NCBI GenBank assembly: GCA_046350815.1
Contig: JAXLZO010000001.1
Coordinates: forward strand, 240,001-272,000
DNA: 32,000 bases
From: Candidatus Saccharimonadota bacterium
Lineage (GTDB): Bacteria > Patescibacteriota > Gracilibacteria > BD1-5 > UBA2023
Direction of reading: 5' to 3'
The notes below the pieces were generated by a model. It searched no databases. It was given only the letters and a program-made list of their open reading frames with translations, and was not told where the DNA came from. Position numbers and translations under genes: made by a program. The first letter of the stretch is position 1. Every line of letters begins with the position of its first letter. Positions 5,988 to 29,099 of this stretch are shown one piece after another.

Positions 5988-7920
5988 TTCTTCTCAAAAA
6001 CAACTTATCCTCTTGTGGATTTTTGTATCAGTCTTTCTCACTTCCTGTGGAAACACCGATTCAGCACAAACAAAAGAAAAAACGCCAATAGAAGTATCGG
6101 TTATGAAGCCAATGACTGGATGAGTATCTCTTGATCAAACGATCGTTGGTCGTGTTATTGGTGATCCGGAAGTGACTATTTCATCACAAAGTGCTGGCAT
6201 ACTTTCATCGGTATCATATCGTATTGGTGAGAATGTAACACTCGGATCTTCACTCGCGACCATTGATACATCAAGTACTACCAACAATTTGAATCTCAAT
6301 AATGCTCAAACAGCACTCAATAACGCCAGTAGTATTGCAGAAAGTACGATTGCTAGTCTTGAATCTGATTTGAGTGCAGCTCATATTCAGTATGAAAATG
6401 CCAAGCAAAGTCAAAAGAGTGTCTACAATACGACCCAAACACAACTCGATCTCTGAGTGTTAACCGCACAAAATAATACTGCTCAAGCAAAGACAAATCT
6501 TGAACAAGCAGAGCTTGCGCTCTCAAATTTTCAAAAAACAAAGCAAGAGTCTCTCTCTAGTCTCAACGATCGTGCATCCACCCTCTCAAAAACCATTGAT
6601 GCAAGTCTCATTCAAGTTGTGTCAACTCTTGAACCAGCACTTGAATCAGCTGATAAAATTCTCGGAGTAACTGATAAAAATAAAGATCTGAATGATTCCT
6701 ATGAGCCCTATCTTGGCAGTAAACTCACACGCTCAAAGGAACAAGCAAATGATGCATTTTTAACAGCCAATCAACTCCTCGATTCATACCGACGCACCTT
6801 TGCGAGTGATCCAGAATATCGCCTATCAGCTGCGCGAGAAGCAAACAGTGCAGCAGTAGAACTCTATCGACTTCTCACTCTAGTTGTTCAGAACTCCGTT
6901 ATCGATGTGAATCGTTTTTCTCAGACCCAATCGGATAGTATACTTTCACAAGTCAGTGTTCGTCAACAAGCTCTCATACCACTCGAATCCACATTGACAA
7001 GTCTACAAAATAGCCAAAAGGATCTTGAAACTCAACGATCAACAACACGAGCAAATCTTGAAACTCAAGAACTGTCTCTCAAGAAAGCACTTGAAATCGC
7101 ACAAAAACAAAATGGTCTTATAGCTGGTTCGGACACAGTCGCAACAGCTGAGCTTTCTGAAAAAAATCTCGAAAATACAAAAGCACAAATCAATCAAGCA
7201 CGTGAAAGTGCTGATAACGCACTCAAGCTTGCAGATGCGAACCTCAAAAGCCTTGAAGCAAAAATTGCTGCCCAACGAACACAAGCTCAAGCAAATGTTG
7301 ATAATGCCAAATGACAAAGAGACATTGCGAACGTAAGTGTAAAAAATGGAAACTTTCTCTCTCCGGTAAATGGTGTTGTGACGGCACGTCTTGTTGAACC
7401 GGGAATGTCTGTATCGCCTGGTACACCCCTCTTTACTCTTGCTACCAATTCAACAAAAATTGTGCGGAGTGATCTTCCACTCAATATTGCTGAAGCTCTG
7501 AAAGTTGGTGATGAAGTTTCGCTTGTAAGTCTCTCATCAAGTATAAGTTTCTCAGGTCGTATTAATCGTATCGCCAGTGCACCAGATGCAAATACAAAAC
7601 TCTATCGTATTGATATTGCTCTACCGAATGATACAGATCTCCACTATGGAGAATTTGTACAAGTTCATGCTCAAATCATACATGGTCTATCAGATACACA
7701 AAGTGGATCGATTAGTCTTCCTATGAAGGTGATCATGGCAAAAAGCCAATGAAGGTACGAAGTCTGGGTAATAGAAGATAGTCGACTGGCAAAGCGCGAA
7801 GTTACTCTTGGAGCAATATCGAGTAATCAGGCTGAGGTACTCAGTGGTATTACCTCTGATACCATGGTCGTAACAAGTGATGGAATATACGGTGAAGGTG
7901 ATAGTGTTATTATTCGATAA
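5971..7920 (+). CDS. Efflux transporter periplasmic adaptor (membrane-fusion protein, HlyD/AcrA family), lipoprotein, 649 aa
   Basis: Track fragments 5908.., 6172.., 6457.. and 7378.. are all in one frame and are joined by TGA. The lipobox signal is LILLWIFVSVFLTSC. A lipoyl/beta-barrel segment reads SPVNGVVTARLVEPGMSVSPGTPLFTLA. A very long helical insert lies between the lipoyl halves. The stop is TAA 7918-7920. Confidence 0.85.
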
Positions 7921-7939
7921 TTTTTTAGACTTCTTCTCT

Positions 7940-10900
7940 ATGAATGATTCCAATAACAAAATTCGAGAACATTCTCATGATTCTATCGAGCATATCGAGT
8001 ATGACTCAGAGCTTGGAAAATGATGGTATAGCGCATTTCTCTCACGTACACGAGTGATACTTCTCATTCTCGTTTCTATTTTTGTAGCATGATACCTTGC
8101 ATTAAAAACTCTTCCCCTTGAGTCAAATCCCGAAGTAAAAATCGGGAAAGCGATTGTCTCCGTTGCTTATCCATGAGCACCCCCAGAAACGGTCGAAGAT
8201 CTGATTACAAAACCAGTTGAAAAAGAAATTGCCCGTGTAAAAGGAGTCGATACGTATGAGTCAACTATCAGAAATGGTATATCCTCAACAGTGGTAACAT
8301 TCAAATCCAATGCGGATGCTGCTGATGTGACACGTACCATGAAGGATCAAGTCGATTTAGCGGCGGTTGATTTTCCTGAAGATGCTAAGGATCCTGTTGT
8401 GAAAGAAATATCCTTCTCTGATGAGCCAATATGGGTAATGACTGTATCTTGAGATATGGATAGCATTACGCTTGGTGACTATGCGGATCGGATTGCTGAC
8501 GAGCTTGAAAAAGTACCATGAGTACAAGATGTTCAGGTAACAGGTGCTGACAAATTGGAATATCAGATACATGTTGACCCTATAGCACTCAGCTCATTTG
8601 GATTATCTCTTGAAAGCATTAATACCGCTCTCAAATCAAAGAATATCAACCTTCCTCTTGATAGTGTGAACACATCAGATTGAGAGCATGCCATTACGAT
8701 TGATGAACGTATATACAAAATTGATGAAATTCTCAATCTCCCACTCACACAACTCACAAATACAACCACCAATTCCCAAGGTATTATTCGTATCAAGGAT
8801 ATCGCAAGTGTTCGCGCTCTCACTGCTGATCGTAGTACTATTTCTCGATTTGCACCACAGACAAAAAGCGGCTGATTGGCAACAACAACCAATTCAGTTC
8901 AGCTCTCAATCATTAAACGATCTGGTGGCTCAATTCTCGACCTTGTCGATCTTGGGAATAAAAAGATCGAAGAAATGAGAACAAATGGCAGAATCCCTCC
9001 TTCACTCAGTATCACAACCATACAAGACAATTCTGAGCGAATACGCCTAGATCTTAAACAGCTCATTCACGATGGTCTCATCACCGTGACCATTGTAATT
9101 CTTGTACATTTTGCAGTTATCGGGGTAATTGAAGCTTTTGTTGCAGCACTTGCCATACCAATCGTATTCTTCATCACTTTTGCAGTCATGGCATTTGCAG
9201 GACAAACATTGAATTTTCTCTCCATGTTTGCGCTCATTCTGTCACTTGGTCTTCTTGTAGATGATGCGATTGTCGTGATTACAGCAATTAATCAGTATAA
9301 ACGATCAGGAAAATTTACTACAAAAGAAGCGATTCTTCTGGTTATTCGTGATTTTAAAAGGGTGCTTATTTCGACAACTTTAACAGTTGTTTGGATTTTT
9401 TCAGCAATGCTCTTTATGACTGGATTGATTGGAAAATTTATTTTCTCAATTCCATTTATCCTGACTGTTACGCTTCTAGCATCTCTTGTTATCGCATTGA
9501 CGCTCAATCCAGCGCTTTCATTGTTCTTTGCCTCGCTTGAGTGACAGAACTTCGACACAAAACTTCGAGCGTATCTTATGAAGTTTACCCTTCATTTAAA
9601 AGATGTATCATTATTTCAAAGAGTTCTTGCGGGAACAAAAATGTTTATCTTCACGTTCCTTATCCCAATTATTCCTATAGGATGGTGCGTTTATGGTTTC
9701 CTTAAAGTATGGCTGAGAATCTATCCATACCTCTCAAAAGGGCTTTATTCACTCCATCCTCTCGAAGCATTTTATGGACGCATTCTCACATCGATCCTAT
9801 CATCACAGGTGAAATCTCGTTGTCTTCTCTTTGGTATTCTCACACTCTTTATACTTTCGTGTTTTCTTCCAGCATCTGGACTGCTCAAGTCTGATTTCTT
9901 TCCAAAAAGTGATCAATCATTGATGACCGTTAATATCGAGGCACCGGCTGGCACCACACTGGAATCAACTTCTGAGCTCGTTCGAGCTATCGAATCCCAA
10001 CTCCAAAAAGAGAAAGAAATTGCATCCATATCAACAACTGTTGGACAACTCTCTGATCTCTCATCAGGAGAAAGTAGACAGGGAGGACAATATGCTACCG
10101 TAACAATCAATTTAGTGAAAAAGGAAGATGGACGTAAGGAAAGTTCTATGAGTATTGCTGATAGGCTCCGACAAGAATTTACCACCTTCTCTGGTGCAAC
10201 AATCTCAGTATCCGAACTCTCTGGTGGACCTCCTGCTGGTGCTGACTTCTCTCTACGCATAGCAAGTGAAGATAGTGACACACTCGAGACCGTTTCAGAG
10301 GAAGTAATGAAAATAGTACGATCTATTCCAGGTGCTGTGAATGTACGATCAAGTAATGTTGTTCTACCTTCAGAGTTTCGCCTTGAATTCGATCCAAGTG
10401 CATTAGCAAACTATCAATTGTCAGTCTCTCAAGCAGCCCTTCTCTTAAGGAATGCAACCGCTGGATCTGAAATATTTAAGATCAAACAAACTCAGAAAGA
10501 AATTCCAGTAGTCACACGTTACATGACAGGTTATACCTCAAGTCTTGATTCGATACTTTCTCTCAACATACAAAATCGATCTGGAGTAAATATTCCCGTA
10601 TCGTCCATTGCTCGTGTAGTACCCACCCCGGCACTCGCATCTATAGAACGCTATAATGGGAAAAGAGTAGTGAATGTTACCGCAAGTGCAGACAAATCAA
10701 CCAATGGAACAGAGCTTCAAGCAGCATTTCAAAAGAAGATCGTCTCATACCATTTACCGAGCAATACAGAATTTCTCTATGGGTGAGCAAACGAAGAAAA
10801 TGCAAAATCGGTAGCATCACTCTGAGTAGCTATGATGTTCTGATTGCTTCTCATCGTTGCAACACTCGTTCTCCTTTTTGATTCGTACAAACTCTCAGCT

Positions 10901-11293
10901 CTTGTTCTTGTAACTATTCCACTTTCTCTCATTGGAGTATTTGTGGGACTCACAATCTTTCGACAGCCACTTTCATTTCCTGGAATGATCGGTCTCGTTG
11001 CACTCTTTGGTATTGTGGTGAGAAATGGAATCATTCTCTTTGATAAGATCAATCACAATCGCTCTATCGGGATGAAGATGAATCAAGCAATCGTTGATGC
11101 GGGACGTACTCGTCTTGAGCCGGTTTTACTCACATCTGTCTGTACGATTCTCGGTATGGTGCCACTGTCACTCTCAAATCCTACCTGGACACCACTCGCA
11201 CTCTCTATTATATTTGGCCTTACTGCATCTACACTTCTAACACTCCTCGTGCTTCCTGTATTGTATTCAAAAGTAGCTAAAGAATCGGAGTAA
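7940..11293 (+). CDS. RND-superfamily efflux permease (AcrB/AcrD/AcrF family), 1117 aa
   Basis: A single frame holds fragments 8876.., 9578.. and 10844.., joined by 11 in-frame TGA. Motifs are LSLGLLVDDAIVVI, GMIGLVALFGIVVRNGIILFD and AIVDAGRTRLEPVLLTSVCTILGMVPL. Confidence 0.92.
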
Positions 11294-11407
11294 GAAAATG
11301 GTATTATTTTACAATAAGCTATTGAATTCACGAAAGAACTTCTTACAATTATTCAGACATACAAATGCAACCATAACAAGGTTTACCACATTACAACTTT
11401 AGATTTC

Positions 11408-12112
11408 ATGTGACACTCTTGAGGCGCGCAATGGATTTCTCTGGCGGATTTAATGACGGGACTGATGTTTGTGTTCTTGCTCATTTCTGTAGCTTTTATG
11501 GCAGATTTGCAAAAGCAAGAAGACAACAAAAATAGAGTTTTACTTGAGTATAACAATACACAAGGGGAGATCCTTAAAGACCTGAAACTTGCTTTCCAAG
11601 ATAAAGAGAAAGAATGGGAAATGACCATAGACGATGATCTGAGTATTAAATTTACCAATCCCGATGTCTTATTCGATCCAAATGTATCAACGGTGACCCG
11701 GAAATTTCAATGAATCCTTGATGAATTTATTCCACTTTATGTATCCATCATAAATAATGAAAAATATAAAGATGCCATTGTTGAGGTGCGAATAGAATGA
11801 CATGCTGGAAAATGTGATGAATCGGAATATATGACTTGTCTTCGGCTCTCTCAAGAGCGATCTAACGCGGTACTTTGATATATATTTAGTCACTCAGATT
11901 ATAAAAATATAGACGAAGTGAACAAGAGAAAACTAAAGTTTTGGCTCACTTCTAATGGTATGAGCAATGGAAAAAATCTTGATAATAATGGTCGATACGT
12001 ATTTAAGTCTTGAAATGAACTCGATCCAAAGCTCTCAAGGCGGGTCGAGTTTCGTATTGTCACAAATAGCGAAGCACTCGCAAAAACACTAATTGATAGT
12101 CTCTGAAAGTAA
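11408..12112 (+). CDS. MotB/OmpA-family stator-like protein (ZorB-like), 234 aa
   Basis: I checked the frame triplet by triplet; it has 7 TGA and ends at TAA 12110-12112. The N-terminal TM segment with a conserved Asp is WISLADLMTGLMFVFLLISV. The OmpA-like peptidoglycan-binding signature is VEVRIE[G]HAGKC...CLRLSQERSNAVL[G]YI...RRVEFRIV. Confidence 0.8.
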
Positions 12113-12135
12113 TTCTCATACGTTATTTTTACAAT

Positions 12136-12537
12136 ATGTCAAATAATACTCATACCAAAATTAACAGATTGCGAGCCTTATTAAATGACTGAGATATTAA
12201 ACAATATCAACTTAATTCGATTCTAATGGATATAGTGCGCATTACATCTTGTGAGGAGTTCAATGTATCAATTCAAACAAAGGTAATCGACAAAATCCAA
12301 ATTCTTTTATCAGGGGATTATTATATATATGAGTTAGCAGCATGTGTATCAGATCTTAATATATTACTTGAGAATATTCTTGAGATTAATATTGCAGCAG
12401 AAAATAGTTTTAGTGACCAGTGGGATGATGAAGGGTATTTTGAAAATGAAAGAAGGTGTAAGCATAGTGAATATTGATTTTCATGCATGGAATTATTTCC
12501 TGATGAGGATGACTGGTGTAGTGCTTGCCGTAATTAG
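12136..12537 (+). CDS. Hypothetical acidic protein, 133 aa, C-terminal CxxC
   Basis: Runs from ATG 12136 to TAG 12535-12537 and contains track ORF 12226..12477 plus 2 TGA. The C-terminus reads ...SDQWDDEGYFENERRCKHSEY[G]FSCMELFPDEDDWCSACRN. It lies 23 nt after the MotB-like gene. Confidence 0.55.
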
Positions 12538-12546
12538 TTTATCTTT

Positions 12547-13299
12547 GGGTCTAAACCAGTTGACAGGATAAATTATCCCATAAACTTGGCTCTATGATCA
12601 GTAAAACTACCTATAGGAAAAAATCACGAATTTGAGATGCAAAAATAAGAGAAATTGTGAAATATTTTTCTCTGGATTTTACTTCAGATAAAACAGCGGT
12701 ATTAACAGGTCTCAATCCAAAAACAACACAGGATTGGTATAGATATATCAGAAAGGCGATAGCCTTTCTCTGTGAGAGAGAAAAGAATGAAATATGGACT
12801 GGAAATGTTGAGATAGATGAGAGTTACTTCTGACCAACAAGAGTCCGATGAAAGAGAGGAAGGTGAGCTGGTATGAAGACAATAGTCTTTGGTTTACTCA
12901 AAAGAAACTGAAAAGTATATACTGAGATAGTTCCTGATGTAAAAGCAAGGACTCTCGTGCCAATCATTCGATGAAAACTTCGTATAGAAGAGTCTGAGAT
13001 TAACAGTGATGGATGGTGAGCTTATGATGGGCTTGTAGATATTGGATATGAGAAACACTACCGTGTTCATCACGGAGCAAATGAATTTGCAAGATGAACT
13101 CAACACATTAATTGAATAGAGTCATTTTGGAGTTATACCAAAAGAAGACTCTCTCAATTCAATGGAATCAAGAAAGTCTACTTCTACTATTTTTTGAAAG
13201 AATCTGAATTCAGATATAATTGTCGTATTCAATGAAAAGATATTTATAAGGAAGTGCTAAAGTTACTTCGTCAATATAACCCGTAACTGGTTTAGACCC
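12547..13299 (+). mobile_element. IS1595-family insertion sequence, type B, copy 1 (753 bp)
   Basis: Inverted repeats are GGGTCTAAACCAGTT (12547-12561) and AACTGGTTTAGACCC (13285-13299). The 7-bp direct repeat TATCTTT flanks it (12540-12546 and 13300-13306). By eye it is identical to 28232-28984. Confidence 0.92.
12594..13286 (+). CDS. IS1595-family transposase, 230 aa, 10 TGA read as Gly
   Basis: Sequence MISKTTYRKKSRI[G]DAK...VEIDESYF[G]PTRVR[G]KRGR[G]AGMKTIVFGLLKRN[G]KVYTEIV...NSDGW[G]AYDGL...HYRVHHG...HIN[G]IESFWSYTKRRL. TGA falls on the family's conserved Gly positions. Confidence 0.92.
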
Positions 13300-13316
13300 T
13301 ATCTTTAATATATTGT

Positions 13317-14762
13317 ATGGTCCCACATTCATTTACAGTTGAAGTCATAATTGGTCTCCTGTGTGTATTCTTCGTTACGTTTTTTGTATGGCTTCTCAAG
13401 AGAGATAAAAATCTCATCACCATGACAGGTATATTATGTACTTTTGGTGGTATTATTTACGCACTTCTAGGTTTGGACACAGTGAATATATCTGGAAGTA
13501 TGCCGAAACTACTTAATGGGCTTTCAGTCGCATTTATTCCATCTGCTCTTGCGATAGCTATTACGATTTTTTGGAATCTCTTCTTTGAGAAAAATGAGAC
13601 GGAATCGGGAAAGTGAACTGATGATTTACTGAAAGATATATCATCCAAGATGAGTGAGCTTATTGAGAAACAAAAAACTCTTGAGAATCTTCCATTGATC
13701 CGAGAGGAACTAACAAAAGAACAAGATATAAATATTTCTCTCTTGAAATGAGTACAAGATATGCTCGAAGCACAAAGAGAAATCAAAGAATCAAATGAAA
13801 AGAATTTTTGAGAGACAATAAACAGCATAAAGACATTGGAAATGCTGCCAAAAATACACAAAGAACTCGAATCTATCAATACACATATTTGATGAAACGA
13901 TAACATAAGCTTACTTAATGGAGTACAACAATTGCAAAGTTCGATGAATGAAAAGCAAGATGACTTGAAAAAATCGTTCGATGAGTTTGCCCGAGAAATG
14001 TCTGAAAATAACATGAAAGCACTCACAGAAAGTATGCAACAATTTATGGAAGATTTCAACGCAAAGATTAACGATCAATTGTGACAAAGCTTCCAAGATC
14101 TTAAGAGCTCCATTGATCATCTTCTTGAGTGGCAAGCGCAATACAAAGTTAATATTATAACTTCTATGGAAGCACTCAATCTCTCAAAGGAATCGCTTGA
14201 AAGATCTAGCAAGGGATTTGAGATTACAGTTGAAAAATCAGAAACATTTATAGGTGTTGCTGACTCTCTTAAGAACGAATTACACTCTTTAAACGAGAGT
14301 CTCATTCTTCTCAAATCTGGACTGAATGAATTTGATGCTATTGCTAAAAATAACAAGGAGGCAAGCCAGAAGATAATTGAATCAATAGATGTATTGAAAA
14401 ATAATTTCGTATCCAAAGCAGAAGTTATAGTTGAGGAGAGCGAAAAACATATCAGCAATATGCAGACTACCTTTGCAACTCAAGCAAAGAATTTAACAGA
14501 GACACACCAAGATATACTCCAAGATTTGAAAAATAATGTAGACAATACGAACAAGAATGTATCTGAACAGTTTGAGGAAATTGGAAAAAATCTTGAGAAA
14601 CAAACAGAGAAATTAGGAGAACGAACCCTACAGCTCGATAATGATATAGGAGAAGCTCTCAATAAATCTCTTGATAGTTTATGAAGCGAACTTACTTCTA
14701 TTACGGAAAAATTTACAGAACAATTAGCGAGATTGAATTCTATTTTACAAACAAAAGAATAA
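13317..14762 (+). CDS. MotA/ExbB/TolQ-like channel protein with a coiled-coil tail of about 380 aa (ZorA-like), 481 aa
   Basis: I verified the frame triplet by triplet across 7 TGA, joining track ORFs 13317..13616 and 14166..14684; the stop is TAA 14760-14762. TM segments GILCTFGGIIYALLGL...LLNGLSVAFIPSALAIAITIFWNLFF resemble the MotA/ExbB signature. The remainder is E/K/L/N/Q-rich helical sequence with only two prolines. Confidence 0.7.
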
Positions 14763-14765
14763 TAG

Positions 14766-15503
14766 ATGCAACTACTGGATTTTCACACCTCCTGACTGTC
14801 TGAACTAAGAAAGAGAATAGGAGCCGATTTATTAGATTACAAAGCAATTCCTTGGGAGCCACGGCAGGCAAGCATAGTACCCGTGAATCCAAGTAGTATT
14901 CAAATCAATTCCTTAGATAATACAATTACTAACAATGATAATGAAAGGATTGTAGTATATATACGAGATATTATACCTTATGAATGAAAACATAAAGATA
15001 CAAAAATACATTTCTACGAATGTGATACTATTAGAACCTTTATGGAAAAAGGTAAACAAAGATTTGTTGGAGCTTACACACAAACATGAAAGCTGGAAGT
15101 ATGCTATATGTGAACAGATGAACAAGTAGAAAAGCAACTGGGCGTATGTAGTAATTGTTTAAAAGAAGCTCGAGAAAATAAATATATTCCATTCGAATTA
15201 CTCAACCCCTTTTCCCTTAAAAAATACTTTGATTTCTATGAATATTACAGAAATCGAGTCAAAAATCCTAAATATAATTTTCTCACCATTACAAAAAATC
15301 AATATCCAGCTAATTGGGAAGAAATATCAAAGCATGAGAGGCAAAAAGTAGACTGGGTATGTCAGGATTGTGGAAAGGATTATAAGAATAATAAGGGGGA
15401 ATTGCATGTACATCATAAAGATCATAACAAATGAAATAATTTTTCCGATAATTTTGAGGTGTTATGTTACGATTGTCATGCTAAACATCATAAACATATG
15501 TAG
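14766..15503 (+). CDS. HNH endonuclease-domain protein (ZorE-like), 245 aa
   Basis: The ATG lies 3 nt after the preceding stop. I verified the frame; it has 5 TGA and ends at TAG 15501-15503. The C-terminal HNH motif is WVCQDCGKDYKNNKGELHVHHKDHNK[G]NNFSDNFEVLCYDCHAKHH. Confidence 0.8.
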
Positions 15504-15621
15504 CAACGATCGTTTTCATCTGATGTACCCGTACGAATCATCTTGACTTTCACTACTTCCAGATAGACTGTCCAGTATTATCTATTTCAAACGGAGCCGA
15601 GAGGCTTTTTCATTTTTATTT

Positions 15622-15903
15622 TATGAACAAGACAAAAATTATTGCCACTATCAATGATGGCACCGAAGATGAACAATTTCTGGAAGATCTCTATGATCGT
15701 TGAGTTCGAATTCTACGGTTCAACTTTTCCCATGGGGACGCCAATAAAGTTCGTCACGTCATGAGTCTCATTGCCAATATTGCCAGTCGTGGCAAATATC
15801 TTTCTACCGTTCTCGATACCAAATGAATCGAGATTCGCACAGGAAAAGTTGATCAAAAGATTCAATTTTATAAATGAGATCATATAAAACTCGTTACGGA
15901 TAA
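15622..15903 (+). CDS. pyk: Pyruvate kinase, N-terminal fragment (frameshifted gene)
   Basis: MNKTKIIATINDG...DR[G]VRILRFNFSHGD...VLDTK[G]IEIRTGK...KLVTD, then TAA at 15901-15903. PK homology continues in the +1 frame. Confidence 0.85.
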
Positions 15904-15961
15904 TGCTGATGTATCAGGGGAGAAATCTCTTTTTATCGATTATCCTTATCTCAGTGAAGAT

Positions 15962-17050
15962 GTGAATATTGGACAACGCATCGAGATAGACTCAGGTGTT
16001 TTTCATGTGCGAGTCATTGCGAAAAAAGGAAGTATTACTATAGTAGAGGCTGAAAATGATGCACTCATAGGATCAAATCGTCATGTAAATCTACCAGGTG
16101 TAAAGCTCAGACTTCCATCGCTTACCGAGAAAGATAAAACCGATCTTCTCTTTGCTATAGAAGCAGGCATGGATTTTATCGCTGCGAGTTTTGTACGCAA
16201 TCGTCAAAATGTAGTGGACATACGTGAATTCCTCGATCAGAACGGTGGAGAGAATATTAAAATATGTTCAAAAATTGAGAATCAAGAGGCGATCGAAAAT
16301 CTTGATGAGATTATTCTCATATCGGATGGAGTAATGGTAGCACGTGGAGATCTCGGTATTGAGGTGCCCATGATCAGTCTTCCAATGTATCAGCGACGTA
16401 TCGTAAAGTCTTGTCGTGAGCAAGGGAAATTTGTCATCGTAGCAACTCATATGCTCAAATCTATGACGGATGCACCAACTCCAACGCGAGCAGAAGTATC
16501 TGATGTTTTCAATGCAGTGTTACAAAAAACTGATACGACCATGCTGTCGGAAGAGACGGCTATTGGCTCATACAAACTCGAGGCAGTTGAAGCGATGAGA
16601 GACATCACAACGGAGGCTGAAAATAGTCTCGAATACGGACATCCCGATTATGAAAGTAGTAATATCAGCGAGCGTGACAAAGAGAAGAAATACCTTATTC
16701 GTTCAGCCCTCCGTCTCGCAGAAGATCTTGGTATCACCAATATTCTTCTCTTTACAAGAACTGGTCGTCTGGCACGCTTTGCCGCAGCGTATCGTCCGAG
16801 TCACCTCATTCATGCTTTTACTGGAAATATACAAACATTACGATATACAAATATTCTCTTTGGAATTGATCCGAATCTCCTCCCAAATTGGTGAAGCCAT
16901 GAATCAAATCTCTGGAATGCTATTGAAACACTCCAGAAAAATGGAACTATTAAAACGAACGAGAAAATTATTGCTATTACTGATATTGAGCGAAATGAAG
17001 AAGAAATCCCAAGTCTTGAAATTATTGATCTAAGTAAAATAAAAAAATAA
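15962..17050 (+). CDS. pyk: Pyruvate kinase, main body (GTG 15962 is the first start codon; homology begins at 15902)
   Basis: Motifs NLPGVKLRLPSLTEKDKTDL, DFIAASFVRN, ISKIENQEAIENLDEI, DGVMVARGDLGIEVP and MLSEETAIGSYKLEAV are present. The frame continues through TGA 16892 to TAA 17048-17050. Confidence 0.9.
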
Positions 17051-17069
17051 CCTTATAAGGTTATTTTTT
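17047..17069. terminator. Bidirectional hairpin terminator between convergent genes
   Basis: A-run, then ATAACCTT (17047-17054) pairing with AAGGTTAT (17057-17064), then a T-run. It sits between the pyk stop and the stop of the reverse-strand kinase-like gene. Confidence 0.55.
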
Positions 17070-17936
17070 CTTTGCTGTAGTTACTATTTCAGCTTTCTTA
17101 AGAGATTTTACATGCTTATCAACCTTGATCACTTCACCAGTTCGAGTCTTATCTGTGACTTTTTCCACCATAATTTTACTATCAAGGTAGTCTAAGAGTG
17201 ACTTCGTAATATCCTTGGCAATATGACGCTTCTTGCCTTCAGCATTGAGTGTAAGAACTTGTTTTTTATCCTTATAGATACGAGCATAATTCTCAACAAT
17301 ATTCTTTTGAGCGATATGAATCATTTTTCTCTTGTCCTTTCGAGTAAGTTTGTCACCTGTATCAGAATAGACAAGATTATTGATGAGATGAAGTGTGAGG
17401 ATAGAACAATGTGTCTTGAGGCTACCGCTACGTACCATATCAGCTCGCTCATAGATACGATCAAGAGTTTCCTTGAGAGGAACATCCATATAGACGGTAA
17501 GTGCTTTGTCAAAAACCTCTTTATAGAGACCATTTGCAAACCAGAGAAGTCATTTTCGAATCTTCTCTTCAGAAATCCCAAGCATCATACCACGTACAAC
17601 GATCGTCTCAAGACCTCGCTCAAGAAGCACCACCTCACCACGAGAGAGTGCTGGAATAATCTCACGCTCGAGTCGATAGACAAGATCAGCAACTTGAAGA
17701 ATAAGATTTGCTTCGGAAGTAATCATAAGCTCAATTTTCTTTGCAGCCTCATTTGACTGAAGAAATGGACCAATAAATGGAGCATCCTTCCAACTTGAAA
17801 CCGTAACCTTGAATCCTTGTTTCTTGAGACTTCGAGAAAGTTTTGCAATTTGTGTTGATTTACCACATCCATCTGCCCCTTCAAAAACAACAAGGGTACC
17901 TGAGAGATCTTTGACGGAAGAAATATTTGCTTTCAT
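17061..17936 (-). CDS. Thymidylate-kinase-like P-loop kinase, divergent, 291 aa
   Basis: Fragments 17550..17936 and 17061..17489 share one frame and join through a single TGA. The P-loop is LVVFEGADGCGKSTQ. The position of the Tmk DRY motif reads LLERGLET. The protein is longer than I recall typical Tmk to be (roughly 210 aa). Confidence 0.65.
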
Positions 17937-17966: not shown

Positions 17967-18725
17967 TTAGACTGCTGCAGCTGTCATCGCAGATCCAAGA
18001 GAAACATGATATTTTTTCTTGAAGTACTCAGCTGTGATGCGAATAACATCAGGAGTGGTCTCATAAACCGGCTTTGTACCATCAATAATATGAAGATGGT
18101 CACTCTGTGCAGCTTGGTCATATCCAGCAATAACTCGAGTTTGGAATTGCATAAAGCTATCAATGATATTATCAGAAAATGACATATCCATACCAGCTTC
18201 ATACCACTTGAGTGGGTTACGTCCAATGGCACGTTTAGCAGCTACGTCAACTGGAAGTTGGAAGTAGAATGCAAGGTCAGGCTTTGGGAAGAAGATATCA
18301 TAGAATGCACGTTGATCATCCACATTGAGTCCACGAGCATATCCACGAGCGAGTGCTGTATACATATAACGATCACAGAGCACTACCATACCAGCAGCAA
18401 GTTTTCCTTTAATTTCAGTGATATATCGCTCCATAAAGTCTGCGGCAAATACGAGATCAAATACAACCGCAGGACAATGAGGATCTCGCTTCTTGATTTC
18501 TTTACCAAGGGGCTTGATAAGGAGATTCGAATTCCATTCGGTATGGTGACAGAAAAACCCATTCGCTTCGAGGAGTTTCTGAAGAATAATAAGTTGTGTG
18601 GATTTACCGGATCCATCACATCCCTCAACAATAATGAGTGTGCCTGGACGCTCAGAAGTAGGGAAAAACGTTGCAACCGGTTCGCTCTTGGCTACAGCTT
18701 TTGTATTGGTATTTTTATGTGCCAT
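17967..18725 (-). CDS. tmk: Thymidylate kinase family protein, 252 aa
   Basis: This is an intact ORF with no TGA. Motifs are LIIVEGCDGSGKSTQ (P-loop) and VLCDRYMYTALARG (DRY/S..AY region). Confidence 0.7.
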   Translation of the reverse strand: MAHKNTNTKAVAKSEPVATFFPTSERPGTLIIVEGCDGSGKSTQLIILQKLLEANGFFCHHTEWNSNLLIKPLGKEIKKRDPHCPAVVFDLVFAADFMERYITEIKGKLAAGMVVLCDRYMYTALARGYARGLNVDDQRAFYDIFFPKPDLAFYFQLPVDVAAKRAIGRNPLKWYEAGMDMSFSDNIIDSFMQFQTRVIAGYDQAAQSDHLHIIDGTKPVYETTPDVIRITAEYFKKKYHVSLGSAMTAAAV

Positions 18726-21701: not shown

Positions 21702-22417
21702 GGTCTAGACTAGCAAATTTTTAAAAATAGCTTTTTTTGCGAGTCTGAAATTTTTATAATTGTATCGAAATTCGCACCCTTTCAAACGAAGATGAAATTT
21801 ATCTGGGGCAATCCCATTAAACTTTGCCATTCTTCTTTTGCAGAAACTCCAGAAAGATTCAATACCATTCACATGATTCTTTCCTCTGGCAAACTCATTC
21901 TCACTGTGAAATACCCTATAGTGATCATATCCATTTAAAACAAGAGAATCATATGCTTTCCATCCATCCGTATAGATGGTAGATCATTCCAGTATTTTCC
22001 CATGAATAATTGGCATAAGTTCACTTCTGGAGCAGTTCTCTACAATACTTACAAATACTCTTCCATCTCGCTTGAGAAGTCCAAACACTGGTGTTTTTCC
22101 TGCAGCTCACCTTCCTCTTTTTCATCTAACCCGACGAGCACCAAAGTAACTTTCATCCAGTTCAAATTCTCATCAGAATTCATACCTTTCTTTGAAACTC
22201 TTTGATTCCTCAATGGAAATTCGCACAATAGCCTCTCGAAATCGGTTATACCAAAGATTCACACTATTACGATTTATCCCCATAATTTTTGCTGTCTGAG
22301 TAGCAGTAAAATCCTCAAAAAAATAGTAAAAAATTCTTCAAATTTTATAAGTCGATAATTTTGTGTATTTGATCATAAGCAAATAGTGTAAGAAGTACTA
22401 TTTGCTAGTCAAGACCC
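21701..22417 (-). mobile_element. IS1595-family insertion sequence, type C (717 bp)
   Basis: Inverted repeats are GGGTCTAGACTAGCAAAT (21701-21718) and ATTTGCTAGTCAAGACCC (22400-22417), matching at 17 of 18 positions. The 7-bp direct repeat TTGTCTA flanks it (21694-21700 and 22418-22424). Confidence 0.9.
21705..22376 (-). CDS. IS1595-family transposase, 223 aa
   Basis: Sequence MIKYTKLSTYKI[G]RIF...EF[G][G]EFELDESYFGARRVR[G]KRGR[G]AAGKTPVFGLLKRDGRVF...YTDGWKAYDSL...HYRVFHS...HVNGIESFWSFCKRRM. The stop TAG lies inside the left IR. Confidence 0.9.
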
Positions 22418-27883: not shown

Positions 27884-28333
27884 ATGCAATTATCACAATT
27901 TCTCGTGGAAGCAAAAACTTCTACCTATGCGGCTGGGGATAGTGCGAAACGGACCAAAGAAACGGACCAATCAACTACAATGATATTTGAGAAAGGAGAC
28001 TGGAAATACCACGATAATTACTTTGGTGGGGAACCTTACGGTGGTCGTGAAGTGGTGCTCTTCCAATGAAAACCAATCTGGATGATGACATACTATGGCT
28101 GGGTCGAAAAAAGCAGAGATATAATTGCATGAGAAGTCTATAGAATCCTCCAATGAGCACTCAGAAATATACCTGAGCGTGCACCATATCGTGGACCTCT
28201 AGAGTACAAAGATGAAGAATATATTTATCAAGGGTCTAAACCAGTTGACAGGATAAATTATCCCATAAACTTGGCTCTATGATCAGTAAAACTACCTATA
28301 GGAAAAAATCACGAATTTGAGATGCAAAAATAA
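27884..28333 (+). CDS. DUF5680-like protein gene truncated by an IS (native part 27884..28231; read-through tail is IS sequence)
   Basis: Sequence MQLSQFLVEAKTSTYAAGD...YHDNYFGGEPYGGREVVLFQ[G]KPIWMMTYYGWV...EEYIYQ, then the IS left end is translated as GSKPVDRINYP... to TAA 28331-28333. The family assignment is from memory of DUF5680 sequences and needs an HMM check. Confidence 0.6.
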
Positions 28334-28984
28334 GAGAAATTGTGAAATATTTTTCTCTGGATTTTACTTCAGATAAAACAGCGGTATTAACAGGTCTCAA
28401 TCCAAAAACAACACAGGATTGGTATAGATATATCAGAAAGGCGATAGCCTTTCTCTGTGAGAGAGAAAAGAATGAAATATGGACTGGAAATGTTGAGATA
28501 GATGAGAGTTACTTCTGACCAACAAGAGTCCGATGAAAGAGAGGAAGGTGAGCTGGTATGAAGACAATAGTCTTTGGTTTACTCAAAAGAAACTGAAAAG
28601 TATATACTGAGATAGTTCCTGATGTAAAAGCAAGGACTCTCGTGCCAATCATTCGATGAAAACTTCGTATAGAAGAGTCTGAGATTAACAGTGATGGATG
28701 GTGAGCTTATGATGGGCTTGTAGATATTGGATATGAGAAACACTACCGTGTTCATCACGGAGCAAATGAATTTGCAAGATGAACTCAACACATTAATTGA
28801 ATAGAGTCATTTTGGAGTTATACCAAAAGAAGACTCTCTCAATTCAATGGAATCAAGAAAGTCTACTTCTACTATTTTTTGAAAGAATCTGAATTCAGAT
28901 ATAATTGTCGTATTCAATGAAAAGATATTTATAAGGAAGTGCTAAAGTTACTTCGTCAATATAACCCGTAACTGGTTTAGACCC
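28232..28984 (+). mobile_element. IS1595-family insertion sequence, type B, copy 2 (753 bp)
   Basis: It has the same sequence as 12547-13299 (offset 15685). The 7-bp direct repeat TTATCAA flanks it (28225-28231 and 28985-28991). Confidence 0.92.
28279..28971 (+). CDS. IS1595-family transposase, 230 aa (identical to 12594..13286)
   Basis: Identical nucleotide sequence to copy 1. The identical antisense track ORFs 12894..13106 and 28579..28791 confirm the duplication. Confidence 0.92.
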
Positions 28985-28985
28985 T

Positions 28986-29099
28986 TATCAAAATTCCTAT
29001 ACTTGAAATATTGAGCAATTTTCAGGTAAAGAAATAATAAAGCAGGGTGATACGATAGTTTATCAGGCCCAATATATGGGAGGGATCATCGATCAGTAA
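28986..29099 (+). pseudogene. DUF5680-like gene, 3' remnant
   Basis: After removing the IS and one TSD copy, ...EEYIYQ continues in frame as NSYT[G]NIEQFSGKEIIKQGDTIVYQAQYMGGIIDQ to TAA 29097-29099. Confidence 0.6.

What the first reader, a model, noticed from the sequence alone, without database searches (positions are those of the whole stretch)
11408..15503. Candidate Zorya type II-like defence locus in non-canonical order: MotB/OmpA-like, small acidic protein, MotA/ExbB-like with a long coiled-coil tail, HNH nuclease
Four co-directional, tightly spaced genes make up the locus. There are 23 nt between genes 1 and 2, and the HNH ATG lies 3 nt after the preceding stop. Gene 1 has a MotB-type TM helix with the conserved Asp (WISLADLMTGLMFVFLL) and an OmpA-like peptidoglycan-binding domain. 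Gene 3 has MotA/ExbB-like TM segments (GILCTFGGIIYALLGL...LSVAFIPSALAIAITIFWNLFF) followed by about 380 aa of nearly proline-free, E/K/L/N/Q-rich helix. Gene 4 ends in a clear HNH motif (ELHVHHKD...N...LCYDCHAKHH). Zorya type II is defined as ZorA (MotA-like with a long tail), ZorB (MotB/OmpA-like) and ZorE (HNH). This locus differs in three ways. The order is B-x-A-E rather than A-B-E. It carries an extra 133-aa acidic CxxC protein. Its ZorA-like protein is only 481 aa, much shorter than I recall for E. coli ZorA. It also sits in a code-25 CPR bacterium. No flagellar, gliding or Tol-Pal genes are nearby, which argues against a motility or envelope role. This could be an undescribed minimal Zorya variant.
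Basis: partly seen in the sequence, partly recalled or inferred. Interest (0 to 1): 0.88.

Follow-up and report, generated by a model that had tools for sequence, protein, structure and literature searches.

The report
Type II Zorya defence locus, IS-interrupted
This is a recognisable type II Zorya anti-phage system (membrane motor ZorA/ZorB plus the ZorE HNH nuclease) in a Gracilibacteria genome that reads TGA as glycine.

Summary
The locus is real and is a type II Zorya system. Under code 25, the three core proteins match PADLOC ZorB2 (1e-69), ZorA2 (4e-58) and ZorE2 (4e-42). ZorA and ZorB find the solved S. kujiense type II ZorAB (8VVI) as their best PDB match. The ZorB Asp and the ZorE HNH/zinc residues are conserved.

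- There are five ORFs, not four. A 753-bp IS1595 element (12547-13299, 7-bp target duplication, identical copy at 28232) sits between the small gene and zorA. A 96%-identical relative has the empty site.
- A 481-aa ZorA is not "minimal". The median in 81 related loci is 483 aa, and the solved type II ZorA is 378 aa.
- The B-A-E order is non-canonical, since the published order is zorABE. But it is shared by every Gracilibacteria Zorya locus whose order could be read (four), and by one Kaiserbacteria locus.

The 133-aa acidic protein is a real gene (dN/dS 0.24). It is an orphan found only in this lineage, and its role is unknown.

This is a new member of a known kind, of modest interest. No report of Zorya in CPR bacteria was found, and the public record does not annotate this locus as Zorya.

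The parts
11322..11349 (+). Promoter-like site (TTGAAT-16-TACAAT) in the 114-nt gap upstream of zorB. Weak evidence only.
   Evidence: The number of such sites in the region is not above the shuffled expectation, so this is only a candidate.
11408..12112 (+). zorB (234 aa, 7 in-frame TGA=Gly). It has an N-terminal TM helix with Asp14 and an OmpA-like peptidoglycan-binding domain.
   Evidence: PADLOC ZorB2 1.4e-69, full length. PDB 8VVI_A (S. kujiense type II ZorB) 5e-35, with D14 aligned to the critical D21. Pfam OmpA 7e-5 and MotB_plug 0.038, both below the gathering score. One TM segment at 12-30. NCBI's gene model (204 aa, 'OmpA family protein') starts at M31 and omits this helix.
12136..12537 (+). 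Gene X: a 133-aa acidic (pI 4.3) orphan protein, predicted helical, with a Cys-rich C-terminus (C108, C117, C128, C131).
   Evidence: No Pfam, NCBIfam or PHROG hit. The only matches in 5.8 billion proteins are itself and a fragment. An exhaustive HMMER search finds only spurious tandem-repeat proteins. It is present at the same position in L001. dN/dS is 0.24 versus L001. AF2 single-sequence pLDDT is 51.
12540..12546 (.). Left copy of the 7-bp target-site duplication, TATCTTT.
   Evidence: The relative L001 has a single TATCTTT at the empty site.
12547..13299 (+). IS1595-family insertion sequence (753 bp) with 15-bp perfect terminal inverted repeats (GGGTCTAAACCAGTT). The transposase ORF is 12594-13286 (230 aa).
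   Evidence: Pfam DDE_Tnp_IS1595 5e-27. NCBIfam IS1595 5e-47, above the cut-off. A 100% identical copy lies at 28232-28984. At least four protein accessions for the identical transposase exist in the source genome.
13300..13306 (.). Right copy of the target-site duplication, TATCTTT.
13317..14762 (+). zorA (481 aa). It has three TM helices within residues 1-90 (the MotA/ExbB-type motor core), followed by a helical tail of about 385 aa with only 2 Pro. The tail contains an internal duplication (121-147 vs 173-204).
   Evidence: PADLOC ZorA2 4.1e-58. PDB 8VVI_F (type II ZorA, 378 aa) 4e-26, aligned across both the TM core and the tail. Pfam MotA_ExbB 3.8e-4, just below the gathering score. TM segments and composition.
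14766..15503 (+). zorE (245 aa): an N-terminal domain with conserved H82/C86/C128/C131, plus a C-terminal HNH nuclease (C199, C202, H216, H217, N225, N229, C234, C237, H238).
   Evidence: PADLOC ZorE2 3.8e-42. NCBIfam ZorE 3.2e-24, below the equivalog cut-off. All residues that are at least 85% conserved in the HNH and zinc sites of 53 ZorE homologs are present.
15593..15608 (+). Terminator-like hairpin plus T-run after zorE. It is the only one on the + strand in the locus.
28232..28984 (+). Second, identical copy of the IS1595 element, flanked by the 7-bp duplication TTATCAA. It splits a 151-aa gene that starts at 27884.

Best explanation
The locus is a type II Zorya anti-phage system (zorB, zorA, zorE) resident in a code-25 Candidatus Gracilibacteria genome.

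Inferred mechanism, by homology to the characterised type II system:
- Five ZorA and two ZorB subunits would form an ion-driven motor in the cytoplasmic membrane.
- ZorB's OmpA-like domain would bind peptidoglycan.
- Ion flow past ZorB Asp14 would turn the ZorA ring and its long helical tail.
- On phage attack, the complex would recruit the soluble ZorE HNH nickase to the membrane, where it would damage DNA.

The gene order B-A-E is a trait of the Gracilibacteria clade of this system. Two lineage-specific additions sit between zorB and zorA:
- An orphan 133-aa acidic, Cys-rich gene (X), which is under purifying selection and has no known role.
- A very recent IS1595 insertion that leaves all ORFs intact but physically splits the operon.

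Shown: the family assignments, conserved key residues, synteny, the IS anatomy and the genetic code. Inferred: the 5:2 assembly, anti-phage activity, and whether the IS impairs expression.
For: - PADLOC gives type-II-specific hits for all three core proteins: ZorB2 1.4e-69, ZorA2 4.1e-58, ZorE2 3.8e-42.
- The best PDB matches are the S. kujiense type II ZorAB complex 8VVI: ZorA 4e-26, ZorB 5e-35.
- ZorB D14 aligns with the critical D21. The PG-binding motif residues S148, Q149, R151, R211 and R212 are invariant in the family alignment.
- The ZorE HNH and zinc residues are conserved.
- The three genes are co-conserved and adjacent in 55 of 83 related loci.
- Four code-25 relatives read as B-A-E (L001 with X in between), and the five code-25 loci form one ZorB clade.
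- TGA aligns with Gly.
- The IS is a simple insertion. It has perfect inverted repeats, a 7-bp target duplication, an empty site in L001 and an identical second copy.
- The published mechanism of type II Zorya is in PMC11890865 and PMC11946911.
Against: - Scores against the NCBIfam equivalog models ZorB2, ZorA2 and ZorE are far below their curated cut-offs: 126 vs 400, 60 vs 700 and 85 vs 600.
- Pfam MotA_ExbB, OmpA and HNH are all slightly below their gathering scores.
- The gene order is not the canonical zorABE.
- The IS insertion may have uncoupled or silenced zorA-zorE expression.
- Zorya is reported to be under-represented in single-membrane bacteria. CPR bacteria are generally thought to lack an outer membrane (background knowledge), so activation might work differently or not at all.
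- There are no functional data.
Confidence: 0.85

Rival explanations
1. The system is a Zorya II locus that has just been inactivated or is decaying. The IS1595 insertion between X and zorA separates zorB from zorA-zorE. This would break the co-expression and stoichiometry the ZorA5B2 motor needs, so the locus no longer defends.
For: The IS lies inside the operon. The same IS is active in this genome: an identical copy disrupts another gene at 28232, and at least four identical transposase accessions exist. A published survey excluded Zorya loci with pseudogenes or non-canonical arrangements, so such loci do occur.
Against: - All four Zorya-locus ORFs are intact.
- The insertion is intergenic. 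It lies 9 nt after the X stop, and the IS ends 17 nt before the zorA ATG.
- The transposase is co-directional with the operon, and no + strand terminator-like hairpin is predicted inside the IS, so read-through is possible.
- The insertion is too recent for decay to be visible.
Confidence: 0.3
2. Gene X is a genuine fourth component, so the locus is a new four-gene subtype of Zorya II. X could be a zinc-binding regulator or inhibitor that restrains ZorE, or one that tunes the ZorAB signal.
For: X sits inside the operon, 23 nt after zorB and, before the IS arrived, 19 nt before zorA. It is kept in the relative L001, with dN/dS 0.24, similar to ZorA (0.18) and ZorE (0.28). It shares the cassette's low divergence rather than that of the flank.
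Against: - X is absent from the three other Gracilibacteria loci read through past zorB (L002, L003, L015; L004 ends just after zorB) and from the 78 other loci surveyed.
- No homolog was found in 5.8 billion or 1.84 billion protein sets.
- It has no recognisable domain, and the structure prediction is uninformative.
- Zorya II works as three genes in E. coli.
Confidence: 0.15
3. The locus is not a defence system. It would be a MotAB/ExbBD/TolQR-type envelope energiser that happens to sit next to an unrelated HNH nuclease.
For: Pfam shows only generic, sub-threshold MotA_ExbB, OmpA and HNH similarity. NCBI annotates the proteins as 'OmpA family protein' and 'hypothetical protein'.
Against: - The Zorya-specific profiles score far better than the generic ones.
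- The ZorA tail itself aligns to the solved type II ZorA tail.
- The ZorE-type HNH protein is co-conserved next to the pair in most related loci.
- There are no motility, TonB or Tol-Pal genes in the window or in relatives. The relatives instead sit beside GmrSD, Mrr, HepT/MNT and pAgo-like genes.
Confidence: 0.02

Closest known systems
Type II Zorya (ZorA-ZorB-ZorE), e.g. the E. coli system and the S. kujiense ZorAB structure PDB 8VVI (Mariano et al. 2025, PMC11890865)
   Same: - The same three protein families, with near-full-length profile matches.
- A short motor core (about 95 aa) followed by a long helical tail in ZorA.
- A ZorB plug/TM helix with the critical Asp, plus an OmpA-like PG-binding domain.
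- A ZorE with an N-terminal domain and a C-terminal HNH.
- Co-directional, tightly packed genes.
   Different: - The gene order is zorB-(X)-zorA-zorE instead of zorABE.
- An extra orphan gene and an IS element lie between zorB and zorA.
- The ZorA tail is about 100 aa longer than in S. kujiense, through insertions that include an internal duplication.
- The genes are written in code 25, with 19 in-frame TGA=Gly codons in the three core genes.
- The host is a CPR bacterium.
- Identity to the closest standard-code ZorB is only about 45%.
Type I Zorya (ZorABCD; Hu et al. 2024, PMC11946911)
   Same: The ZorAB 5:2 motor with a tail, and the principle of sensing the envelope and recruiting a soluble nuclease effector.
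   Different: - There is no ZorC or ZorD here.
- Type I ZorA is about 700 aa, with a larger motor domain.
- Matches to the ZorA1 and ZorB1 profiles are much weaker (1e-6 for ZorA1; 5e-50 or weaker for ZorB1, against 1e-69 for ZorB2).
Flagellar stator MotAB, and ExbBD/TolQR
   Same: A distant common ancestry of the membrane core, and the Asp-bearing TM helix in the B subunit.
   Different: There is no cytoplasmic rotor-binding domain. A long coiled tail is present instead. There are no partner genes, and the Pfam scores are below threshold.
IS1595 family insertion sequences (ISXO2-like DDE transposase)
   Same: A single DDE transposase ORF (PF12762, NF033547), short terminal inverted repeats, a target-site duplication, and multiple identical copies.
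   Different: The element is small (753 bp). The transposase is written in code 25, with 10 in-frame TGA codons.

Membership tests
Zorya type II | ZorA: a MotA/ExbB-type membrane core followed by a long C-terminal helical tail, matching ZorA2 profiles | tested here: met
   PADLOC ZorA2 4.1e-58. 8VVI_F 4e-26, with both core and tail aligned. Three TM segments in residues 8-89, and 2 Pro in the 386-aa tail.
Zorya type II | ZorB: an N-terminal TM helix with the critical Asp, plus an OmpA-like peptidoglycan-binding domain, matching ZorB2 profiles | tested here: met
   PADLOC ZorB2 1.4e-69. 8VVI_A 5e-35, with D14 aligned to D21. The PG-binding residues are invariant.
Zorya type II | ZorE: an HNH nuclease effector of the ZorE family with intact catalytic and zinc residues | tested here: met
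   PADLOC ZorE2 3.8e-42 over residues 45-245. H216, H217, N225, N229, H238 and four Cys are conserved, as in 53 homologs.
Zorya type II | Canonical co-directional gene order zorA-zorB-zorE (PMC11946911 methods) | tested here: not met
   The order here is zorB-X-IS-zorA-zorE, and the genes are co-directional. In the survey, A-B-E occurs in 46 loci (49 counting 3 with a split zorA) of 83. B-A-E occurs in 4 loci plus 1 with X, all of them CPR.
Zorya type II | Co-conservation of the three genes as a unit in relatives | tested here: met
   L001, L002, L003, L015 and L044, plus the 46 A-B-E loci (49 with the split-zorA loci), keep all three genes adjacent.
Zorya type II | NCBIfam equivalog cut-offs for ZorA2, ZorB2 and ZorE | tested here: not met
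   Scores are 60.2 vs 700, 126.5 vs 400 and 85.5 vs 600 bits. The top-ranked family for each protein is still the type II Zorya model.
Zorya type II | A ZorA5B2 complex forms, ZorE is recruited, and the system protects against phage | not testable with these tools
   This needs expression of a recoded operon, cryo-EM or pull-downs, and plaque assays.
MotAB / ExbBD / TolQR envelope motors | Pfam MotA_ExbB and MotB_plug/OmpA above the gathering score, in a motility, TonB or Tol-Pal gene context | tested here: not met
   MotA_ExbB scores 20.6 against a cut-off of 22.9, MotB_plug 14 against 24, and OmpA 23.5 against 27.2. The neighbours are efflux-pump and pyruvate kinase genes.
IS1595 family insertion sequence | A DDE_Tnp_IS1595 transposase, terminal inverted repeats, a target-site duplication and multiple copies | tested here: met
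   PF12762 5e-27 and NF033547 160 bits against a cut-off of 75. The 15-bp inverted repeats and 7-bp duplications are present at both copies. The empty site is seen in L001.
Genetic code 25 (TGA = Gly) | In-frame TGA codons at positions where homologs have Gly, not Trp | tested here: met
   Across the 19 TGA codons of zorB, zorA and zorE, the aligned residues in standard-code homologs are most often G (293 counts). W is not among the six commonest residues. ZorB residue 131 is G in 77 of 78. No tRNA gene lies in the window to confirm this directly.

The most novel reading that the evidence does not exclude
Gracilibacteria, and perhaps other CPR bacteria, carry their own lineage of type II Zorya. 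It would have a fixed zorB-zorA-zorE order and be written in code 25. It would work in the envelope of ultra-small episymbionts, which are thought to lack an outer membrane, even though Zorya is reported to be under-represented in single-membrane bacteria. In this lineage the orphan protein X would be a new accessory subunit that gates ZorE or the ZorAB signal.
Probability: 0.15. Interest if true: 0.55.

Novelty: new member of a known kind. Interest (0 to 1): 0.3.

Why it matters
Zorya surveys so far used RefSeq genomes and discarded non-canonical gene arrangements (PMC11946911). As a result, CPR bacteria and B-A-E loci were not counted.

This locus shows three things:
- A complete type II Zorya has been resident in code-25 Gracilibacteria long enough to acquire TGA=Gly codons at conserved glycines.
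- It forms a clade with its own gene order.
- It appears to be exchanged between strains faster than the surrounding chromosome diverges.

This gives a concrete test case for whether envelope-sensing by ZorAB works in bacteria without an outer membrane. It also shows that NCBI's annotation (PGAP) missed this locus: the public record calls these proteins 'OmpA family protein' and 'hypothetical'. It does not reveal a new mechanism.

Tried and rejected
- Homologs of X. The word-indexed search found only X itself and a fragment. The exhaustive HMMER search returned two large tandem-repeat beta-rich proteins, P0123 and P0124. They share an 'SGDYY' motif, and their E-values are inflated by 6-8 repeated stretches. 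I rejected them as homologs of a predicted all-helical protein.
- AF2 on X as a single sequence gave pLDDT 51 and pTM 0.30. That is too poor for a fold search, so none was run.
- Pfam, NCBIfam, PHROGs and PADLOC gave nothing credible for X. The only hit was a PADLOC DRT hit at E=0.005.
- No tRNA-Gly(UCA) could be found, because the window has no tRNA genes at all.
- I asked whether recombination between the two IS copies created the B-A order. I rejected this: each copy has its own matching 7-bp duplication, the IS-free relative L001 already has B-X-A-E, and L002, L003 and L015 have B-A-E.
- Script error. In some searches the 'window' sequences were empty because the wrong record was picked. 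The WINDOW leaf in the tree is therefore meaningless, and L001 stands in for it. The HMMs used in the survey were built from L001-L003 only, which does not change the counts.
- Doron et al. 2018 could not be read, because the id I tried is not held.
- Literature searches for Zorya together with Patescibacteria or CPR found only incidental co-mentions.


Full report
**1. What is in the sequence**

Under the standard code the region breaks into short ORFs. With TGA read as a sense codon it resolves into long ORFs:

| Coordinates | Length | Identity |
|---|---|---|
| 7877-11293 | 1138 aa | RND pump |
| 11408-12112 | 234 aa | zorB-like |
| 12136-12537 | 133 aa | gene X |
| 12594-13286 | 230 aa | IS1595 transposase |
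| 13317-14762 | 481 aa | zorA-like |
| 14766-15503 | 245 aa | zorE-like |
| 15623-17050 | 475 aa | pyruvate kinase |

All are on the + strand.

The genetic code is 25, not 4. The 19 in-frame TGA codons of the three core genes align most often with Gly, and not with Trp, in standard-code homologs. For example, ZorB residue 131 is G in 77 of 78 homologs. The exact proteins are on record in an NCBI MAG named Candidatus Gracilibacteria bacterium, on a 1.28-Mb contig.

**2. The overlooked element**

The stretch 12547-13299 is a complete 753-bp IS1595-family insertion sequence.
- It has 15-bp perfect terminal inverted repeats (GGGTCTAAACCAGTT) and a DDE transposase (Pfam PF12762 5e-27; NCBIfam IS1595 160 bits, cut-off 75).
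- It is flanked by a 7-bp target duplication, TATCTTT.
- A 100% identical copy at 28232-28984 has its own duplication (TTATCAA) and splits a 151-aa gene.
- The source genome lists at least four accessions for the identical transposase.
- A metagenomic relative, L001 (ZorB 96-97% identical), has the empty site. It carries a single TATCTTT, and only 19 nt separate the X stop from the zorA ATG.

The IS is therefore a recent, simple, intergenic insertion. It did not create the gene order. It leaves every ORF intact but physically splits the operon. No + strand terminator-like hairpin is predicted inside the IS. The only one in the locus follows zorE, at 15593-15608. Whether zorA-zorE are still properly expressed cannot be decided here.

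**3. What the genes are**

PADLOC profiles give type-II-specific, near full-length hits: ZorB2 1.4e-69, ZorA2 4.1e-58 and ZorE2 3.8e-42. Among all PDB chains, the best matches of the two membrane proteins are the S. kujiense type II ZorAB complex 8VVI. ZorA scores 4e-26, aligned in both the TM core and the tail. ZorB scores 5e-35 over residues 7-228.

Key residues are in place:
- ZorB D14 aligns with D21, the critical aspartate of type II ZorB.
- The OmpA-type PG-binding residues are invariant in a 28-sequence family alignment.
- ZorA has three TM segments within residues 8-89, followed by a 386-aa tail with only two prolines.
- ZorE retains every residue that is at least 85% conserved in the HNH and zinc sites of 53 homologs: C199, C202, H216, H217, N225, N229, C234, C237 and H238. 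It also retains an N-terminal H82/C86/C128/C131 cluster.

Generic Pfam models (MotA_ExbB, OmpA, MotB_plug, HNH) all fall just below their gathering scores. The NCBIfam equivalog models rank the right families first, but far below their cut-offs. This may be why the public record names these proteins 'OmpA family protein' and 'hypothetical protein'. NCBI's ZorB model also starts at M31 and so omits the Asp-bearing helix. Homologs support the longer start.

**4. The claimed peculiarities**

*(a) 'Short/minimal ZorA' is not a difference.* The solved type II ZorA is 378 aa, with its tail at residues 100-378. In 81 related loci the median ZorA is 483 aa, with an interquartile range of 447-511.

*(b) The gene order is genuinely non-canonical.* The literature gives zorABE and states that non-canonical arrangements were excluded from the published survey. 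I surveyed 83 ZorB2-family loci: 80 GTDB species representatives plus three metagenomic contigs.

| Order | Loci | Where |
|---|---|---|
| A-B-E | 46 (+3 with a split zorA) | mostly Bacteroidota and others |
| B-A-E | 4 | Gracilibacteria L002, L003, L015 (all code 25); Kaiserbacteria L044 |
| B-X-A-E | 1 | L001 |
| B-A plus other effectors | 15 | Flavobacteriales |
| A-B | 11 | 7 have a short ZorE-like gene; 4 are cut short or unresolved |
| A-E-B, B-E, B only | 1 each | L081; L059; L004 (contig ends after zorB) |

In a neighbour-joining ZorB tree, the five code-25 loci form one clade (no support values). The B-before-A order is thus a clade trait and not a peculiarity of this locus. The Flavobacteriales B-A group suggests it arose independently at least once more.

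*(c) Gene X is real but is an orphan.*
- It is retained at the same position in L001. dN/dS is 0.24 (20 non-synonymous and 17 synonymous changes), comparable to ZorA (0.18) and ZorE (0.28).
- It is absent from every other locus surveyed.
- It has no credible homolog in 5.8 billion or 1.84 billion protein sets, and matches no family in four libraries.
- It is acidic (pI 4.3), predicted helical at low confidence, and ends in a Cys-rich stretch.
- Its function is unknown. Candidates are an accessory regulator of ZorE or ZorAB, or a passenger gene.

**5. Context and evolution**

The window's neighbours are housekeeping genes: an HlyD adaptor and AcrB pump upstream, then pyruvate kinase and thymidylate kinases downstream. 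In relatives the system does sit among defence genes:
- GmrSD, Macro and HepT/MNT in L003.
- Mrr and SNase in L002.
- A pAgo-like gene in L044.

Between the window and L001, divergence changes sharply at about 11370, just upstream of zorB.

| Region | dS | Nucleotide identity |
|---|---|---|
| Flanking RND gene | 1.40 | about 80% |
| Zorya cassette including X | 0.15-0.30 | about 93%, with mosaic blocks of 100% and about 78% |

This pattern suggests that the cassette was exchanged between strains by recombination more recently than the flanking chromosome diverged. That is an inference from one pair of sequences.

**6. How it most likely works**

This is inferred by homology (PMC11890865; PMC11946911):
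- A ZorA5B2 ion-driven motor sits in the cytoplasmic membrane.
- The ZorB PG-binding domain engages the wall when a phage perturbs the envelope.
- Ion flow via D14 rotates ZorA and its tail.
- ZorE is recruited to the membrane and nicks DNA.

None of this is shown for this locus. Two uncertainties are specific to it. The first is the IS insertion. The second is the host envelope: Zorya is reported to be under-represented in single-membrane bacteria, and CPR bacteria are generally considered to lack an outer membrane (background knowledge, not tested).

**7. Verdict**

This is a type II Zorya system and a new member of a known kind.

The modestly new points are:
- It occurs as a distinct B-A-E clade in code-25 CPR bacteria.
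- I found no report of Zorya in CPR bacteria in the searchable literature.
- It carries an orphan intervening gene.
- The public annotation does not recognise the locus as Zorya.

Interest is 0.3.

Noticed in passing
L016:5995-12681 (also L011, L014, L018, L022, L024-L027, L029, L032, L037, L045, L048, L062): Fifteen Flavobacteriales/Bacteroidota genomes carry a type-II-like ZorB (240 aa) and ZorA (about 510 aa) in B-A order. In the four loci checked, these are followed by a ZorC-like protein of about 470 aa and then an ORF of more than 1000 aa. In L016, PADLOC scores them as ZorC1 (1e-21) and ZorD1 (E=0). This is a type II-style motor paired with type I effectors.
   Followed up: partly
L072:4718-7133 and L073, L074, L079, L080, L082, L083: Gammaproteobacterial loci (Oleispira, Thalassolituus, Saccharospirillum, Oleiphilus) have zorA-zorB. 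In the two loci inspected (L072, L080), these are followed by a protein of only 152-157 aa. In L072 that protein matches the N-terminal part of ZorE but lacks the HNH domain (PADLOC ZorE2 1e-9).
   Followed up: partly
L044:4193-8155: A Kaiserbacteria (CPR, standard code) locus has a pAgo-like 499-aa gene directly upstream of zorB-zorA-zorE. Its ZorA is unusually short, at 249 aa.
   Followed up: no
window 10373-15560 versus L001: Divergence jumps at about 11370. The flanking RND gene has dS 1.40 (about 80% nt identity). The Zorya cassette has dS 0.15-0.30, with mosaic blocks of 100% and about 78% identity. The most divergent block is the ZorE N-terminal region, 15023-15217. This suggests recent recombinational exchange of the cassette.
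   Followed up: partly
window 28232-28984 and 27884-29070: A second, identical IS1595 copy with the 7-bp duplication TTATCAA splits a 151-aa gene. The reading frame is restored when the IS and one duplication copy are removed.
   Followed up: yes
window 21705-22376 (-): A third, diverged IS1595-family transposase (223 aa, Pfam 3e-30). It is about 74% identical at the DNA level over a 72-nt core to the other two copies.
   Followed up: partly
window 13677-13928 (ZorA residues 121-147 and 173-204); L003:5995-7581: The ZorA tails contain internal duplications. Here, TLENLPLIREEL...ISLLKGVQ matches TLEMLPKIHKEL...ISLLNGVQ. L003 has a long repeat, KTMIKDSGEQITMMKEVFAEQSKDLKESHKDILTDLK, present twice. 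Tail length therefore appears to evolve by segment duplication; it ranges from 399 to 528 aa among Gracilibacteria.
   Followed up: partly
window 17061-17936 (-) and 17967-18725 (-): Two adjacent, diverged thymidylate-kinase-family genes (Pfam 1e-10 and 7.5e-18). The first has a lysine-rich C-terminal extension of about 100 aa.
   Followed up: no
window 11408-11500: NCBI's gene model for ZorB (MFO0763482.1, 204 aa) starts at Met31. It omits the TM helix carrying the functional Asp14. Homologs support the 234-aa model.
   Followed up: yes
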